Made by a program: the position numbers and the translations under genes. Source: an uncultured delta proteobacterium (lineage in GTDB: Bacteria; Desulfobacterota; Binatia; Binatales; Binataceae). From it: a stretch of 64,000 nucleotides of DNA. The DNA lies in contig CAWJET010000002.1 of NCBI GenBank assembly GCA_963842085.1, forward strand, positions 384,001 through 448,000, in the 5' to 3' direction. Position 1 is the first letter of the stretch. Every line of letters begins with the position of its first letter. The notes under the pieces are model-generated. The model did no database searches and was not told the DNA's origin. It saw only the letters and a program-made list of their open reading frames with translations. Shown here in pieces: positions 12,495-16,623 of this stretch.

Positions 12495-12773
12495 TTACGA
12501 CGCGGCAGTGCGCGGACGTAGCGTAGTCACGCGCAGTCCCTTGGAGGTCCATCCGACGTCGAAGCCGACGATGTCGCCCTCGCGAATCAGATCGATCCCC
12601 GGCATCGCGCCGCCGATTGGAGCACCCGCCACGGCCACGAATGGAAACTCGAAGGGGATTTCCTTGCCGCTATGCGAGCGCACGATGCCGCGTCCGCGGG
12701 CGCGGTCGAGCTTGAGGATCATGCCCTGGTAGAAGTTTCCGGGAAAGCGCTCGCTGTCGTAGTCATCGGCCAC
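12495..12773 (-). CDS. Small OB-fold / cold-shock-domain-like hypothetical protein
   Basis: GMILKLDRARGRGIV...IPF...IREGDIVGFDV...KGLRVTTL follows the CSD strand pattern with degenerate RNP motifs. Confidence 0.55.
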   Translation of the reverse strand: MADDYDSERFPGNFYQGMILKLDRARGRGIVRSHSGKEIPFEFPFVAVAGAPIGGAMPGIDLIREGDIVGFDVGWTSKGLRVTTLRPRTAAS

Positions 12774-12885: not shown

Positions 12886-13530
12886 TCAGGTACCCAGTTT
12901 GTAATCGATCACCGTGGCCGATTCCACCAGCAGCTTTCCATTCCACATTTTCTTGGTCTCTTCCTTGACCAAACCGCCTTGGACGTCATCCGACAGCCAG
13001 TCCTTGGCCCAGGATACCTCGGGTCCGGTCTTGATCGTGGTCTCGATCCAATGAGTCTTGATCTTATTGCCCATTACAGTCAGGTCCTCGTCGCCTTGGG
13101 TCTCCTTGACCGTCTGCTGCTTGGGAGGCTTTTCCCACAGCGAGTCGCTTGCGTTGCTGACCTCGCCGTTGGCGAAGAGTGTCACCTTGTCGGCAGGCAT
13201 CTCGGTTTCGCTGCCGTCGCCCAGATCGATCCTGGTCTCCTCGAGGACGGCTTTGTCCTTGTTGAGATCGATCAGCTTGGAGTTGATGCGCATGACTGCG
13301 GCGTGGGGCGGATGCGCCATCGCTTCTACGACGCCGACATTGTTCTCACGATGTTCGAAGACTTTCCGCTCGATGGTAACGTAAGTGCCGGGTTTGAAGT
13401 GAGCCCATTGCGCGTACTCCGGATTAGCCGGCTCCGGTGGGTGCGAATCGTCAGCGGCCATCAGAAAGAGGCTTGCGCACAAAACACTGGAGACCAGGAT
13501 CGCCGCGGAGAGTGTCGGCCGGAACCTCAT
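12886..13530 (-). CDS. Exported beta-rich hypothetical protein
   Basis: Signal peptide MRFRPTLSAAILVSSVLCASLFLMA; NPEYAQWAHFKPG; upstream GGAGG. Confidence 0.75.
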   Translation of the reverse strand: MRFRPTLSAAILVSSVLCASLFLMAADDSHPPEPANPEYAQWAHFKPGTYVTIERKVFEHRENNVGVVEAMAHPPHAAVMRINSKLIDLNKDKAVLEETRIDLGDGSETEMPADKVTLFANGEVSNASDSLWEKPPKQQTVKETQGDEDLTVMGNKIKTHWIETTIKTGPEVSWAKDWLSDDVQGGLVKEETKKMWNGKLLVESATVIDYKLGT

Positions 13531-13760
13531 GGTGGACCTCCTGAAATGACGTAGGTAGAAGCCGATAAGTTATAGTCGAGCTATGCGCGGGATCCTACTG
13601 AAACAAAATTGTCGATGTCAACCGTAACCGGCCGGGCGCTGCGCGCGTGCGCCAGGCTCGGTTGACATTGGACTTCAGGATTCGTTAGATGGGAGCACTG
13701 ACTCAGGGATTTCGACGATTAACGGATACGACCGGGAGTGAGTTCCCATCAGGAGGAACC

Positions 13761-14087
13761 GTGGAATCCGACAACCCCGCCATCCGCAACAGACTTAAGG
13801 AACGCCTTCGCACGCTTATCGGCACGGGCGCCAGCACTATCGTGCTCGCGACAACGATACTTAGCGGGCTCCCTGCCGACGCCAATGTCGCGGACACCAG
13901 TCCGGCGGATACTCTCCAGAATCGCGTCGAGAAAGTGCGCCCCCAGGTTCAGGACGCGAACGCCAACCTGCAGCAGCAGGGCGATTCGAAAATCCAGCTG
14001 GCGTGGTGGCGCAATTGGCGCAACGGCGGTTGGCGCGGATGGGGCTGGCCGAACTGGCACAACTGGCGTAACTGGGGCAACTGGTAA
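13761..14087 (+). CDS. GrrA/OscA-like triceptide (cyclophane RiPP) precursor peptide
   Basis: AGGAGG at 13751-13756 then GTG at 13761. Signal-like hydrophobic stretch, LQNRVEKVR helix, then QLA followed by the core WWRNWRNGGWRGWGWPNWHNWRNWGNW with six W-x-N motifs. Confidence 0.9.
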   Translation: MESDNPAIRNRLKERLRTLIGTGASTIVLATTILSGLPADANVADTSPADTLQNRVEKVRPQVQDANANLQQQGDSKIQLAWWRNWRNGGWRGWGWPNWHNWRNWGNW

Positions 14088-14129
14088 AATTTTCCCAACT
14101 ACGCAGCGCGGCATCGGGCAGTACTCGAG

Positions 14130-15299
14130 ATGGCTGCGGTCAATAGATGGCGAATCGCCGGGCCGCTCGAGCTGCTGGTACTGCAGCCCACTCCGTTCTG
14201 CAATCTCGATTGCACATACTGCTACCTTCCTGAGCGCGACTCGAAACGCAGGATGTCCGATGCGACCCTGAATCGGGTTTTTGAATTCGTCTTTTCAAGC
14301 GGAATAGTTGAGCAGGGTTTCACCGTGGTGTGGCACGCGGGCGAGCCGATGGTCCTGCCGATTGCCTATTACGAACGCGCGATCGAAATTGTCAGCGCGC
14401 ATAATCCCGGCGGCTTGCAGGTTGGGCATTCGTTCCAGACCAATGGCGTGCTGATAGACGACGCGTGGTGCGAATTTTTCAAAGCGCATCGCGTCAACGT
14501 CGGAGTCAGCGTTGACGGGCCCGCGTTTCTTCACGATCGCAATCGAAAAACGCGCAAGGGCGGCGGGACTCATCATCGAGTGATGGAAGGGATCCGAAGA
14601 CTGCAGAGCAACGAGGTGCCGTTCCACGTGATCTCCGTGCTGACGGGAGAGTCACTCGACTACGCCGACGAGCTGTTCGATTTCTACATCGAGAACGAGA
14701 TCCGGGAGATTGCGTTCAACATCGAGGAGATCGAAGGACCGCACGCCGGGTCGACGCTCGTCGGCGCGGGCGTCGACGATAGATTCCGCCGCTTTATCGG
14801 CAGAGTTTTTGAGCTGGTCGCGCGCGACGACTCGGCCATCAGCGTACGCGAGTTTGATTCGCTCATTCCGATGATTCTTGGCAGTGGCGGCAAGGACAAC
14901 GACTTTCCGCCAACCCAGGAAAACGCACCTTGCGCGATATTGAGCGTGGACTGCGAAGGCAACTTCACTACTTACTCGCCGGAACTGCTCGGCCTCAAGA
15001 GTAGTCACTATGGCGATTTTGCAATAGGCAATGTGAATACAGATACGCTCGCGTCTGCGATTAATTCCGAGAAATTTCAGCGTATGAGTAGTGATATCGC
15101 GCGCGGACTGAGTAAGTGCCGCGAGACATGTGAGTATTATAGTTTGTGCGGCGGCGGCGCGCCGGTGAATAAGTACTTCGAGAATGGCTCGTTCGATTCG
15201 ACCGAGACCATGTTCTGCCGTTTGAATCGCAAGGCAATCGTCGATGTGATTGTCGCGAAGCTGCAACATCCGATTGGCGCCGTGACCGACGCGGCCTGA
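14130..15299 (+). CDS. grrM: Cyclophane-forming radical SAM/SPASM peptide maturase (GrrM/OscB family)
   Basis: LVLQPTPFCNLDCTYCYLP (CxxxCxxC), WHAGEP, QTNG, GVSVDGP, FNIEEIEG, SPELLG, and SPASM CRETCEYYSLCGGGAPVNKYFENGSFDSTETMFC. Confidence 0.9.
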   Translation: MAAVNRWRIAGPLELLVLQPTPFCNLDCTYCYLPERDSKRRMSDATLNRVFEFVFSSGIVEQGFTVVWHAGEPMVLPIAYYERAIEIVSAHNPGGLQVGHSFQTNGVLIDDAWCEFFKAHRVNVGVSVDGPAFLHDRNRKTRKGGGTHHRVMEGIRRLQSNEVPFHVISVLTGESLDYADELFDFYIENEIREIAFNIEEIEGPHAGSTLVGAGVDDRFRRFIGRVFELVARDDSAISVREFDSLIPMILGSGGKDNDFPPTQENAPCAILSVDCEGNFTTYSPELLGLKSSHYGDFAIGNVNTDTLASAINSEKFQRMSSDIARGLSKCRETCEYYSLCGGGAPVNKYFENGSFDSTETMFCRLNRKAIVDVIVAKLQHPIGAVTDAA

Positions 15300-15310
15300 C
15301 GCGAAATTCA

Positions 15311-15883
15311 GTGAAAATTCGTGACGCGCCGCGGTACCAGAGCCGGCTGACGCCGGCCGAACGTGTGCAGGTGTTCGACTCCAGCAAATGGAAGCCGGCA
15401 AGCGCGGACGAGCTGGCGGCATGGACCGGCAATCGTGAGCCGTCCGCTGACGACGTGTTGGTGATCGGCATCCCCCGGCACTTGCTTAAGCGCTGGTGGA
15501 GTCTGGCTGAATCGGACCATATAACCAAGGGGTTTGAGGGCTATGGGCGCGAGGTCGCCGAGTATTTCGAGTACAAGAAGTGGCGCTGGCCGGTCCTTGC
15601 TTTGCTGGAGGTGGTGGCTGCCGGCGGCAAGGGCGATAGAGCGCTGGTACCGAGTAACCCGATGCGGTTCGGCAACGGAGTAGGGACACTGTTCGCGTGC
15701 ATCAACCTGGGCGAGGAGAATGCTGCGATCGCGATCGACGCGGGGTCGGGGCGGATTCGCGTCATCCTCGAGCCCGGCGAGGGTGTGATGCTGCCGGAGA
15801 GCGGTATCCGCTGGAATCGATCGGCGCTCGGCGGCTCGGACGTTGCGATTACGATGCTGATCGGAGAGCTCTCAACTGAATAG
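15311..15883 (+). CDS. Hypothetical protein downstream of the rSAM maturase (possible cupin/DSBH-like C-terminus)
   Basis: Starts 11 bp after the grrM stop on the same strand; C-terminal FACINLGEE...RVILEPGEGVMLP beta-strand pattern. Confidence 0.65.
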   Translation: MKIRDAPRYQSRLTPAERVQVFDSSKWKPASADELAAWTGNREPSADDVLVIGIPRHLLKRWWSLAESDHITKGFEGYGREVAEYFEYKKWRWPVLALLEVVAAGGKGDRALVPSNPMRFGNGVGTLFACINLGEENAAIAIDAGSGRIRVILEPGEGVMLPESGIRWNRSALGGSDVAITMLIGELSTE

Positions 15884-15890
15884 TCACTCG

Positions 15891-16196
15891 CTACGGCATC
15901 GACATGCAGGTTTGTAGTTCGCCGAGGGCGTTGTCGATGTATCCGATCGCGTTGGCCTTATGCCCGTGATAGTCATTCGCGGCTTTGGCCTGTAGTACGT
16001 AGCGCGCGTGCTGCAGCTCGTTCATTGCTTGTGAGATTTCAGGATGGCCGCCCGGTGGAGGTCCGCCGTAGTAGCCAGGGCCTTCAGGGGGCGGACCGTA
16101 AGGACCGCTGCTGTAAGCGGGGCCCTGCGAACACGCGGCACAGGCCAGCACGATCCCGAAGATGACGCCGCTGGCGAAACACAATCCTTTGACCAT
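15891..16196 (-). CDS. Small lipoprotein with a Pro/Gly linker and a His-containing helical hairpin
   Basis: AAGGAGG RBS before ATG 16196; lipobox-like LACAAC; HPEISQAMNELQHA...DYHGHKANAIGYID. Confidence 0.7.
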   Translation of the reverse strand: MVKGLCFASGVIFGIVLACAACSQGPAYSSGPYGPPPEGPGYYGGPPPGGHPEISQAMNELQHARYVLQAKAANDYHGHKANAIGYIDNALGELQTCMSMP

Positions 16197-16209
16197 AGAA
16201 ATCCTCCTT

Positions 16210-16623
16210 TCATGGAAAGTGGCGATCGATATAGGTAAGCGCGGACTCGAGGTCAGGCAATATCTTGGTGCAAAAACGGACCATCCACGGCGAGCATTCC
16301 GCAAAACTGAACGGGCTGAACGCGATCACGAACTTGCCGAGATCGTGTCCGGCGTAGAAGACCTCCATCGCGGTACCGAGCGAGGGCTTACAGTAGTTCA
16401 CCAGCAGCAGGTCGGCGTCGCGAACGTCCTGCAAATCGAACTCGACGATTTCATTGGCCGAATCGATCTCGCGGTCGCGAAAGTTGCGCCGCATCGGATC
16501 GAGCAGGATGAATCTTCCGGCCAGGCGTTCCTTGGCGCGCGTGCGCCAGTCCTTGGCCGAGCGCTCGGACTCCGCATCCATGATTGGACCGCAGAGGTAG
16601 ATTTTTCGGACGCCGTCCGCCAT
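16210..16623 (-). CDS. Nucleoside 2-deoxyribosyltransferase-like protein
   Basis: KIYLCGPI, LLDPMRR, DLQDVRDADLLLVN, SLGTAMEVFYA. Confidence 0.75.
   Translation of the reverse strand: MADGVRKIYLCGPIMDAESERSAKDWRTRAKERLAGRFILLDPMRRNFRDREIDSANEIVEFDLQDVRDADLLLVNYCKPSLGTAMEVFYAGHDLGKFVIAFSPFSFAECSPWMVRFCTKILPDLESALTYIDRHFP

What the first reader, a model, noticed from the sequence alone, without database searches (positions are those of the whole stretch)
15311..15883. Unassigned third gene: candidate new tailoring enzyme, chaperone or immunity factor for triceptides
Seen: 190 aa, 11 bp after the maturase, and itself Trp-rich. The C-terminal CINLGEE...IRVILEPGEGVMLP pattern resembles the beta-helix core of cupin/2OG-Fe(II) oxygenases, but no HxD...H triad is evident. 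Inference: a degenerate oxygenase-fold protein acting as a peptide-binding partner, or a novel modifying enzyme. It matches none of the partners I know for Grr/Osc clusters.
Basis: inference. Interest (0 to 1): 0.7.

Follow-up and report, generated by a model that had tools for sequence, protein, structure and literature searches.

The report
Iron-site-less MicC-like partner of GrrM
The gene after the peptide-stapling radical SAM enzyme is real and encodes an oxygenase-shaped protein that has lost every residue needed for oxygenase chemistry, so it most likely survives as a peptide- or enzyme-binding helper rather than as a catalyst.

Summary
Window 15311-15883 (+) is a conserved 190-aa gene that starts 11 nt after a GrrM/OscB radical SAM maturase, which itself follows a Trp-x-Asn repeat precursor.

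The protein has no Pfam or NCBIfam match. A confident model (pLDDT 94.8) has the double-stranded beta-helix fold of 2-oxoglutarate/Fe(II) oxygenases. Family profiles hit one solved protein: MicC (PDB 9VKM, E 3.6e-13), the oxygenase of a triceptide cluster described in February 2026.

All five residues shown to be essential in MicC (H160, D162, H253, R188, K266) are missing here. They are also missing across 279 relatives.

Triad-bearing cousins in actinomycetes sit beside GrrM-type enzymes. In Actinomadura alba one is fused to the enzyme.

In 41 genomes of the same genus, the gene is present in 18. Each time it lies directly downstream of GrrM. It is absent from the 23 genomes that lack GrrM.

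My best reading (0.55) is a catalytically dead MicC-type protein kept as a binding subunit of signal-peptide-type GrrM cassettes. Binding itself is not shown, because the complex prediction never ran.

The cassette also carries a fourth, secreted gene (12886-13530, minus strand).

An earlier report of this scan (e1-1436443) reached the same reading on other DNA.

Verdict: new variant of a known kind, moderate interest.

The parts
12886..13530 (-). Probable fourth cassette gene: a 214-aa protein with a signal-peptide-like N-terminus and no family match, transcribed divergently from the precursor.
   Evidence: It has no Pfam or NCBIfam hit. It is present in exactly the same 18 of 41 genus genomes as GrrM and the third gene, always about 0.7 kb upstream on the opposite strand. 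It is missing together with the other three genes in G374 and G553, where the flanking genes abut. A 25%-identical homologue (E 6e-8) sits in the same place in the distant metagenome locus L031.
13751..13756 (+). AGGAGG ribosome-binding site of the precursor gene.
   Evidence: It lies 4 nt before the GTG at 13761. The same AGGAGG-GTG arrangement occurs in 6 of 6 genus-level orthologous loci.
13761..14087 (+). Precursor peptide of 108 aa read from the GTG start. It has a signal-peptide-like N-terminus ending in PADA, a roughly 40-aa linker, and a C-terminal Trp-rich core with six W-x-N units that ends at the last Trp, with no follower.
   Evidence: The longest ORF is 13689-14087, but conservation and the RBS point to 13761. 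The core is invariant or nearly so in 10 aligned orthologues. OscB-type enzymes link Trp C7 to Asn C-beta (review PMC11002830, passages read).
14130..15299 (+). GrrM/OscB-type cyclophane-forming radical SAM/SPASM maturase, 389 aa.
   Evidence: TIGR04261 scores 482.6 bits against a cut-off of 310. PF04055 Radical_SAM scores E 1.6e-18.
15311..15883 (+). The gene in the finding: a 190-aa MicC-like double-stranded beta-helix protein without a facial triad or 2OG-binding residues.
15476..15574 (+). Two N-terminal helices (aa 56-66 and 71-88) that carry the family-specific conserved residues H57, W62, W63 and K89.
   Evidence: Secondary structure comes from the model. Column counts over 279 relatives are H57 243, W62 259, W63 263 and K89 275.
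15599..15871 (+). DSBH core (aa 97-187), including INLGEE (15701-15718), LEPGEG (15767-15784) and Trp168 (15812-15814), which sits at the position of the distal iron-binding His of MicC.
   Evidence: Strands come, alignments, and residue roles in MicC from PMC12912966 section 9.

Best explanation
The gene encodes a catalytically dead descendant of the MicC family of 2-oxoglutarate/Fe(II) oxygenases. It has kept the fold and the linkage to a cyclophane-forming radical SAM enzyme, but it has lost the iron ligands and the 2OG anchors. It most likely acts as a non-catalytic binding subunit of this GrrM cassette. By analogy with MicC, which recognises the already cross-linked core and needs no leader, it would bind the basic, aromatic W/F-R-N repeat core, or GrrM itself, in the cytoplasm. 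This would happen before the signal-peptide-bearing precursor is exported. Shown here: the fold, the homology, the loss of catalytic residues, the strict genomic coupling to GrrM, purifying but relaxed selection, and natural fusions of the domain to other peptide-modifying enzymes. Inferred: that it binds at all, what it binds, and what binding achieves (holding, presenting or handing over the peptide).
For: (1) Fold. The AF2 model has pLDDT 94.8 and pTM 0.90. The best structural matches are 2OG oxygenases: ALKBH7 4qkd_A at Z 9.7, rmsd 3.4, 146 aligned, and 4qkb_A at Z 9.4.
(2) Homology. The family profile A2 hits only MicC 9vkm_A below E 0.01 (E 3.9e-7, profile 18-203 of 209). The long-form profile A3 gives E 3.6e-13 at 52.6 bits.
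(3) Dead site. In MicC the H160A, D162A, H253A, R188A and K266A variants are inactive (PMC12912966 section 9). Here H253 aligns with W168, K266 with T181 and R188 with A138. The other two 2OG contacts, F190 and Y244, align with I140 and V159. The HxD loop has no aligned counterpart. In 279 relatives, no column reaches 25% His except those of residues 10 and 57, which lie outside the barrel.
(4) Coupling. In 41 genomes of the genus, 18 have the gene. All 18 have GrrM directly upstream on the same strand. None of the other 23 has a GrrM above cut-off. In a distant 271-aa clade, 11 of 12 metagenome loci with at least 198 nt upstream have a GrrM-like gene abutting.
(5) Fusions. The Actinomadura alba ORF L048:3869-5908 is a triad-bearing MicC-like domain fused to a GrrM domain (TIGR04261 413.2 bits). 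Five triad-less members (P0147, P0185, P0187, P0191, P0286) carry a C-terminal PF13640 prolyl-hydroxylase-like domain, and the four whose sequences were fetched (all but P0187) show its own HxD and His. This is the pattern expected of a substrate-recruiting module.
(6) Selection. dN/dS is 0.39-0.49, against 0.10-0.15 for GrrM in the same genome pairs.
(7) Charge. The family is acidic: 151 of 154 wide-clade and 109 of 120 narrow-clade members have pI below 7. The repeat cores have pI 12.
(8) These precursors end at the last core Trp, so there is no follower for a MicC-type cleavage to remove.
Against: No binding evidence of any kind was obtained. GrrM-type enzymes without this gene exist: two copies in G521 and a second copy in G531. 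OscB is reported to work in E. coli with its precursor alone (review PMC11002830), so a helper is not generally required. About ten polar residues are conserved in more than 85% of 279 relatives (R18, E34, H57, K89, N132, D/E135, E136, R150, E154, E157), and these could form an unrecognised active site rather than a binding surface. Residue equivalences rest on profile alignments and a predicted model, not on a superposition with 9VKM, which did not appear in the fold-search rows listed. Relaxed dN/dS and the acidic pI are only weakly diagnostic.
Confidence: 0.55

Rival explanations
1. It is still an enzyme, but with chemistry that needs neither the 2-His-1-Asp iron site nor 2OG. Examples would be a metal-independent cupin-type isomerase, epimerase or deamidase acting on the Asn/Arg-rich core, or a site built from the conserved Glu/Asp/His57 residues.
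For: Ten polar residues are conserved in more than 85% of 279 relatives, including an acidic cluster around INLG(D/E)E and LEPGEG. Metal-independent enzymes share this general fold: RmlC and the ketoisomerases appear among the Foldseek matches. The gene is kept under purifying selection across distant clades.
Against: Several of the conserved residues (N132, L133, E136, R/K150, P155, E157) are shared with MicC and look structural. The pocket positions that bind 2OG in MicC are small and hydrophobic here (A138, I140, V159, T181). dN/dS is three to four times that of the adjacent enzyme. Fusion of the dead domain to a complete oxygenase domain fits a recruiting module better than a second catalyst.
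Confidence: 0.2
2. It is an export-timing or self-protection factor. It would sequester the precursor or product in the cytoplasm, either to stop premature export through the signal peptide or to shield the cell.
For: All cassettes that carry the gene have precursors with signal-peptide-like N-termini. Distant ones carry twin-arginine stretches, RRKFLK in L031 and RRQVLG in L019. That these match the Tat consensus is my recollection. The partner-less GrrM loci examined in G521 have a short leader-type precursor without such a signal. The protein is acidic and the core basic.
Against: No signal-peptide predictor was available. The window's own precursor has RNRLK, not a twin arginine. Only one kind of partner-less locus was examined. 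Known Tat proofreading chaperones have other folds (recalled). Nothing suggests that the peptide is toxic.
Confidence: 0.12
3. It is a decaying relic of a former MicC-type oxygenase with no remaining function.
For: The catalytic residues are lost. The rate is faster than that of its neighbours. In G544 the gene carries a stop and in G546 it is in two pieces.
Against: The triad-less state is shared by 279 sequences spanning clades only 24-32% identical to this protein in the 60-row alignment, with strongly conserved motifs. dN/dS is well below 1. In G544 and G546 the adjacent GrrM is broken too, so either the whole cassette is decaying or the assemblies carry errors. The domain has been recruited into new fusions.
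Confidence: 0.05

Closest known systems
MicC of the minviopeptin (mic) triceptide cluster, PDB 9VKM (PMC12912966; passages, section 9 and the SI text search were read)
   Same: It is homologous over nearly the whole domain (E 3.6e-13 and 3.9e-7). It has the same DSBH fold class. It shares the NLG, PDYP (long forms only) and (K/R)-x-x-x-x-P-x-E motifs. It is likewise encoded beside a three-residue-cyclophane radical SAM enzyme and its precursor.
   Different: MicC is an active Fe(II)/2OG enzyme that cuts the N-C-alpha bond at a Gly and leaves a C-terminal amide. It needs H160, D162, H253, R188 and K266. None of these is kept here. This protein is 190 aa and lacks MicC's insert. Its precursor has no follower to cut off. 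The maturase here is GrrM/OscB type, whereas the paper calls MicB PasB-like.
Uncharacterised actinomycete MicC-like proteins beside or fused to GrrM-type enzymes (Actinomadura alba L048:3869-5908; loci L049-L051)
   Same: hhalign gives probability 98.1 and E 7.5e-14 over 176 columns. The partner enzyme family is the same: TIGR04261 scores 413.2 bits in the fusion, and GrrM-like neighbours occur in L049-L051.
   Different: They keep the HxD and distal His motifs, and the fusion also keeps the Arg after NLG. They lie upstream of, or N-terminal to, the radical SAM part rather than downstream. The Actinomadura precursor has a cytoplasmic-type leader and a Gly-containing follower. They split from 46 triad-less sequences in a quick tree (SH-aLRT 97).
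GrrP, the catalogued third gene of the GRRM system (NCBIfam TIGR04262, orph_peri_GRRM)
   Same: It is an accessory gene of GrrA/GrrM-type cassettes.
   Different: It is a different protein. The third gene has no NCBIfam hit at E <= 1, and the whole genome has no TIGR04262 match above 30 bits against a cut-off of 190.
Peptide-binding accessory proteins of radical SAM RiPP maturases (PqqD/MftB-type RRE proteins; recalled, not looked up here)
   Same: [quoted passage not shown]
   Different: The fold is unrelated (winged helix versus DSBH). Those proteins bind leaders, whereas MicC-type proteins act on the modified core without the leader. Membership is not claimed.
Degenerate second DSBH domain of Tpa1/Ofd1-type prolyl hydroxylases (the domain pair is named in the abstract of PMC2847220 seen in a search listing; that the second domain lacks iron ligands is recalled)
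   Same: An iron-site-less DSBH domain is joined to an active prolyl-hydroxylase-type domain, as in P0185 and P0191.
   Different: The order of the domains, the organisms and the substrates all differ. No sequence relationship was tested.

Membership tests
MicC-type Fe(II)/2OG oxygenase (PDB 9VKM) | Sequence homology across the domain | tested here: met
   Profile A3 against PDB chains gives 9vkm_A at E 3.6e-13, 52.6 bits. Profile A2 gives E 3.9e-7. The next hit is at E 0.37-0.39.
MicC-type Fe(II)/2OG oxygenase (PDB 9VKM) | Double-stranded beta-helix fold | tested here: met
   The model has pLDDT 94.8. The top structural matches at Z 8-9.7 are 2OG oxygenases, JmjC proteins and acireductone dioxygenases. 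9VKM itself was not among the rows listed.
MicC-type Fe(II)/2OG oxygenase (PDB 9VKM) | [quoted passage not shown] | tested here: not met
   The distal His aligns with W168 and the HxD loop is an insertion relative to the family profile. The protein has only H57 and H70. No triad-position His column exists in 279 relatives.
MicC-type Fe(II)/2OG oxygenase (PDB 9VKM) | Basic residues that anchor 2OG (R188, K266) | tested here: not met
   They align with A138 and T181. The family columns read A/T/V and T/L/W.
MicC-type Fe(II)/2OG oxygenase (PDB 9VKM) | Encoded beside a cyclophane-forming radical SAM enzyme and its precursor | tested here: met
MicC-type Fe(II)/2OG oxygenase (PDB 9VKM) | 2OG- and iron-dependent oxidative peptide cleavage | not testable with these tools
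   This needs biochemistry.
Pfam 2OG-Fe(II) oxygenase and cupin families | A match to any family model | tested here: not met
   0 Pfam families at E <= 1. Of 30 distant relatives scanned, none matches through this domain at Pfam's gathering score; P0147's PF13640 hit lies in its added C-terminal domain.
GrrP (TIGR04262) | HMM score above the curated cut-off of 190 bits | tested here: not met
   No NCBIfam hit at E <= 1 for the protein. The best hit in the genome is 30 bits, elsewhere.
GRRM / OscAB triceptide system (for the cassette as a whole) | GrrM/OscB maturase above the TIGR04261 cut-off | tested here: met
   482.6 bits against 310.
GRRM / OscAB triceptide system (for the cassette as a whole) | GrrA-type precursor (TIGR04260) | tested here: not met
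   The precursor has no TIGR04260 hit at E <= 1. It is Trp-rich, not Gly-rich, but it carries six W-x-N units of the kind OscB cross-links.
RRE / PqqD-type peptide chaperone | PqqD-like winged-helix domain | tested here: not met
   There is no Pfam hit and the model is a DSBH. Only the mode of working is compared.

The most novel reading that the evidence does not exclude
The dead oxygenase is a checkpoint protein for an exported RiPP. It would grip the repeat core or the signal region of the precursor in the cytoplasm and release it to the Tat or Sec pathway only once GrrM has closed all the rings. That would make it the first dedicated export-proofreading factor of a ribosomal peptide pathway, built from a disabled 2OG oxygenase. 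The secreted 214-aa protein that always travels with the cassette would be the extracellular partner of the finished peptide.
Probability: 0.12. Interest if true: 0.8.

Novelty: new variant of a known kind. Interest (0 to 1): 0.5.

Why it matters
It gives a name and a testable role to a family of several hundred 'hypothetical proteins'. These proteins are welded genomically to one subtype of cyclophane-forming radical SAM systems.

It documents a clean case of an oxygenase that lost its chemistry but was kept. It was even re-used as an N-terminal module on a live prolyl-hydroxylase-like domain.

If it is a binding subunit, it should be included when these signal-peptide-type Trp/Phe-Arg-Asn repeat peptides are produced heterologously. 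It could also serve as a handle for capturing cross-linked peptides.

The finding corrects the picture of the cassette. It is a four-gene unit that comes and goes as a block within one genus.

The MicC paper's main text and SI text, as far as they could be searched, do not mention triad-less homologues or GrrM. Its SI figures S52 and S53 are pictures that I could not read, and they might show such clusters.

Tried and rejected
1. Complex prediction of GrrM + precursor + third protein (alignments A5, A4, A2). No result exists, so binding is untested.

2. The first structure prediction, with the narrow alignment A1, was poor (pLDDT 46.9) and was not used.

3. The search for related loci with alignments A2 and A3 failed because no stretch was conserved enough. 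The single protein P0235 was used instead.

5. The search for longer (fused) forms with A2 found none in the 477-2000 aa range. The tool itself calls this weak evidence. The 465-467 aa fusions came from the 'near' search and the 679-aa fusion from a genome search.

6. The first Actinomadura match (L002) lay in an alternative frame of another gene and was discarded. The real homologue in that genome is elsewhere.

7. P0133, a radical SAM C-terminus joined to this domain, is a single metagenome product of unknown context. I give it little weight.

8. No RNA holder was listed for the locus, and no reads were laid.

9. There was no match in plasmids and no Rfam family in 13000-16500. The promoter and terminator scans were at chance level.

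10. The protein atlas gave only sub-threshold 2OG-oxygenase-like leads.

11. The small lipoprotein-like gene 15891-16304 (minus strand) was considered as a cassette member and rejected. It is present in 28 of 41 genus genomes, including 11 without the cassette.

12. No conserved gene follows the third gene in distant loci.

13. 9VKM did not appear among the fold-search rows listed. The link to MicC is therefore by sequence profile only.

14. The careful tree search did not finish, so only the quick tree is reported.
Full report
WHAT IS THERE. Window 13761-15883 carries three co-oriented genes. The first encodes a precursor peptide. Its longest ORF is 13689-14087. However, an AGGAGG site followed by GTG at 13761 is conserved in 6 of 6 orthologous loci of the genus, which gives a 108-aa product. 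The second is a 389-aa radical SAM/SPASM enzyme (14130-15299). It scores 482.6 bits on TIGR04261, 'cyclophane-forming radical SAM/SPASM peptide maturase GrrM/OscB', against a cut-off of 310. The third, starting 11 nt later, is the 190-aa ORF of the finding (15311-15883).

The precursor has a hydrophobic, signal-peptide-like N-terminus ending in PADA, then a linker, then a 27-residue tail with six W-x-N units. It stops at the last Trp. OscB-type enzymes are reported to join Trp C7 to the C-beta of Asn or Asp two residues on (review PMC11002830, passages read).

The protein has 7 Trp, two His (57 and 70) and one Cys. The two quoted sequence stretches are present. It has no Pfam or NCBIfam match at E <= 1.

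It is a real gene. 132 protein clusters reach E <= 1e-3 among 565 candidates. The few that carry a source name are labelled hypothetical proteins of Candidatus Binatus. A full scan of 1.84 billion representatives finds 60 proteins at E <= 1e-3, most of them about 30% identical. dN/dS against six orthologues is 0.39-0.49. The gene is single-copy in its own genome.

FOLD AND KINSHIP. With only close relatives in the alignment, the structure prediction failed (pLDDT 46.9). With 60 sequences that include the distant ones (A2) it became confident: pLDDT 94.8 and pTM 0.90. The model has two N-terminal helices packed on an eight-stranded jelly roll.

An exhaustive structural comparison against 48,161 chains put 2OG-dependent oxygenases at the top. 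ALKBH7 4qkb_A scored Z 9.4 (rmsd 3.7, 148 aligned), followed by PiuC, prolyl hydroxylases and AlkB relatives, with acireductone dioxygenase among them. A second look at Foldseek's best 999 chains gave the same picture, with 4qkd_A at Z 9.7. Foldseek's own first hit was acireductone dioxygenase at E 1.9e-4. These Z values alone would show no more than a common fold.

The specific link comes from sequence. A profile of the family searched against all PDB chain sequences returns a single significant protein, 9vkm_A, 'alpha-ketoglutarate-dependent non-heme iron oxygenase MicC'. The E-value is 3.9e-7 with A2 and 3.6e-13 with the long-form subfamily A3. The next hits are at E 0.37-0.39.

WHAT MicC IS. 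I read passages, section 9 and a text search of the SI of PMC12912966. MicC belongs to the mic triceptide cluster of Mucilaginibacter inviolabilis. After the radical SAM enzyme MicB has made the cyclophanes and MicD has ADP-ribosylated a His, MicC cuts the N-C-alpha bond at a Gly. This removes a seven-residue follower and leaves a C-terminal amide. It needs 2OG and is stopped by EDTA. It does not need the leader peptide. Its crystal structure shows a DSBH with the triad H160-D162-H253. Alanine variants of each triad residue and of the 2OG anchors R188 and K266 are inactive. [quoted passage not shown]

THE CATALYTIC SITE IS GONE. The PDB chain numbering is the paper's plus 20. This follows from the positions of H, D, R and K in the printed alignments. 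The equivalences are:
- H253 aligns with Trp168.
- K266 aligns with Thr181.
- R188 aligns with Ala138.
- The other two 2OG contacts, F190 and Y244, align with Ile140 and Val159.
- The stretch of MicC that carries HxD is an insertion relative to the family profile.

An independent profile-profile comparison with a triad-bearing actinomycete relative (see below) gives the same equivalences: probability 98.1, E 7.5e-14, 176 columns.

I aligned 279 family members. The column of residue 168 reads W 99, V 74, F 35, L 23. The column of 181 reads T 109, L 97, W 20. The column of 138 reads A 123, T 72, V 30. The only columns with at least 25% His are those of residues 10 and 57, and both lie outside the barrel.

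What is conserved in more than 85% of the 279 sequences is R18, W27, E34, P55, H57, L58, W62, W63, K89, P94, N132, L133, D/E135, E136, R150, E154, P155, G156, E157, G158 and P162. Several of these (NLG, E136, a basic residue at 150, P155, E157) are shared with MicC and are probably structural. H57, W62, W63 and the PGEG turn are specific to the triad-less family.

LIVE COUSINS, ONE FUSED TO GrrM. A search of the Actinomadura alba genome found a homologue inside a 679-aa ORF, L048:3869-5908. Its first roughly 300 residues are a MicC-like domain that keeps an HxD motif, the Arg after NLG and a distal His. Residues 322-674 are a GrrM/OscB domain, with TIGR04261 at 413.2 bits.

Directly upstream lies a 127-aa precursor with F/W-x-N/D units and a Gly-containing follower.

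Three further genomes of that order (4 of 301 had a match; the tool warns that this is a floor) carry stand-alone homologues. These keep HxD and the distal His and lie beside GrrM-like genes.

In a quick maximum-likelihood tree of 50 sequences, the four triad-bearing proteins separate from all 46 triad-less ones (SH-aLRT 97). The clade of this window is monophyletic (100) on a long stem. The careful search did not finish. This fits a single loss of the site, but the root is not established.

COUPLING TO GrrM. In 41 genomes of the window's genus, including the window's own, the gene is found in 18. In all 18 a GrrM gene lies directly upstream on the same strand. In 16 of them it scores above cut-off (counting G544, where it is in pieces). 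In G532 and G546 it is split in two. None of the other 23 genomes has a GrrM above cut-off.

The broken copies coincide. G544 has a stop in the third gene, and G546 has it in two pieces. These may be joint decay or assembly errors.

At family level, GrrM above cut-off occurs in 4 of 61 genomes. Three of them have the third gene adjacent. The fourth, G521, has two GrrM copies without it. A second GrrM copy in G531 also lacks it.

Across the class, 9 of 301 sampled genomes have a match. Across the phylum sample, only the window's own genome does (1 of 201).

In a distant clade (271-aa forms, some named Gemmataceae by their source), 16 metagenome loci were recovered with one query, so they are kin and not independent. 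Of the 12 with at least 198 nt upstream, 11 show a GrrM-like gene ending where the homologue starts. The exception is L022. The other four loci are cut too short to tell.

The precursors there differ in their cores: F-R-R-G-G-F-G-N-G-G-Y repeats in L019, and F-R-N and W-P-N repeats in L031. They again carry signal-peptide-like N-termini, here with twin arginines. The partner-less G521 loci have a short precursor of the ordinary leader-core kind.

OTHER CLUES TO ROLE. Five triad-less members carry an added C-terminal PF13640 domain (P0147, P0185, P0187, P0191, P0286). In the four whose sequences were fetched (all but P0187), that domain shows its own HxD, distal His and basic residue. In the tree, the three included form one subclade. 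A dead domain placed in front of a live peptide hydroxylase-like domain is what a substrate-recruiting module would look like.

The family is acidic. The median pI is 5.2-5.35, and 260 of 274 members are below 7. The repeat cores have pI 12.

The gene evolves three to four times faster at non-synonymous sites than GrrM in the same genome pairs: 0.39-0.49 against 0.10-0.15.

No further gene is conserved downstream in distant loci.

MOST LIKELY MECHANISM. The ancestor was a MicC-type oxygenase that docked onto cyclophane-bearing cores made by a GrrM-type enzyme and trimmed a follower. In the lineage that serves signal-peptide-type repeat precursors, which end at the last ring and have nothing to trim, the chemistry was lost and the docking function was kept.

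I therefore read the protein as a non-catalytic subunit. It would bind the basic aromatic repeat core, or GrrM, in the cytoplasm. It might keep the peptide soluble, present successive repeats, or hold the peptide back until the rings are closed and export can proceed.

The fold, the homology, the dead site, the coupling and the fusions are shown. Binding and its purpose are inferred. I put this reading at 0.55. The alternatives are a cryptic enzyme at 0.2, a purely export-timing or protective role at 0.12, and a relic at 0.05. The remainder is unassigned.

A FOURTH GENE. Comparing cassette-less genomes of the genus shows that the flanking genes abut there. The homologues of 12495-12773 and 15891-16304 lie 59 nt apart in G374. 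The block that comes and goes therefore also contains the divergently transcribed 214-aa gene at 12886-13530.

That gene has a signal-peptide-like start and no family match. It is present in exactly the same 18 of 41 genomes. It also has a 25%-identical counterpart at the same place in the distant locus L031 (E 6e-8). The lipoprotein-like gene at 15891-16304 is not part of the block (28 of 41 genomes).

RELATION TO EARLIER WORK. The catalogued third gene of GRRM systems, GrrP (TIGR04262), is absent from this genome and unrelated to this protein. An earlier report of this scan on another genome (e1-1436443) had already described a three-gene GrrM cluster with an 'iron-site-less MicC-like partner protein'. 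My tests agree with it. They add the family-wide residue counts, the presence/absence table, the actinomycete fusion and the fourth gene.

Searches of the paper library found only the MicC paper linking a DSBH protein to triceptides. The searches used the terms triceptide/GrrM, cyclophane/radical SAM/Gly-rich repeat, three-residue cyclophane/3-CyFE/OscB/AmcB and cyclophane/precursor peptide/DSBH/cupin. The key primary papers on OscB (Nguyen 2020, Sugiyama 2022) were seen only as references in a review. SI figures S52 and S53 of the MicC paper are pictures I could not read.

VERDICT. This is a real, conserved accessory gene. It is a new variant of a known kind (the MicC family) that has lost its enzymology. 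Interest is moderate, at 0.5. The pseudo-oxygenase and the four-gene cassette are worth a bench test, but the maturase chemistry is known and the same reading already exists in this scan.

Noticed in passing
window 12886-13530 (-): A 214-aa secreted-looking protein with no family match travels with the cassette. It is in the same 18 of 41 genus genomes, it is absent together with the other three genes in G374 and G553, and it has a 25%-identical counterpart at the same place in the distant locus L031. Earlier scan notes on other genomes mention a secreted protein that accompanies GrrM.
   Followed up: partly
window 13689-14087 (+), true start 13761: The precursor ORF is probably 24 codons shorter than the longest ORF. 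A GTG preceded by AGGAGG is conserved in 6 of 6 orthologous loci. The N-terminus looks like an export signal, and distant relatives carry twin-arginine stretches (L019, L031).
   Followed up: partly
L048:3869-5908 (-) and L048:5905-6288 (-), Actinomadura alba: A natural 679-aa fusion of a triad-bearing MicC-like domain with a GrrM/OscB domain, preceded by a 127-aa precursor with F/W-x-N/D units and a Gly-containing follower. A 484-aa ORF containing an HxD and a later His (seen by eye, no NCBIfam hit; Pfam not scanned) follows at L048:2661-4115.
   Followed up: partly
P0185, P0187, P0191, P0286, P0147 (metagenome proteins): These triad-less family members are fused to a C-terminal PF13640 prolyl-4-hydroxylase-like domain, and the four fetched (all but P0187) keep its own HxD...H. 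Their gene neighbourhoods could not be fetched.
   Followed up: no
G544:C27:497068-498746 and G546:C15:349929-351674 (same genus): GrrM and the third gene are both interrupted in the same genomes: split frames, and one TAA in G544. This is either joint decay of the cassette or assembly errors.
   Followed up: no
L041 and L042 (G521), L040 (G531): GrrM paralogues at 389-406 bits have no MicC-like neighbour. The two G521 copies are near-identical duplicates, each next to a 102-aa peptide ending in W-D-N / Y-D-R / F-K-F units and a long (579- or 689-aa) overlapping ORF.
   Followed up: no
window 15891-16304 (-): A small Pro/Gly-rich lipoprotein-like gene converges on the cassette. It is a resident neighbour and not a member: it is in 28 of 41 genus genomes, including 11 without the cassette.
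   Followed up: yes
L015 (G393:C12:825576-826337): A family match of 157.5 bits carries one TGA and one TAG inside it, next to a GrrM-like ORF, in a genome that is 58% complete. It is possibly a pseudogene.
   Followed up: no
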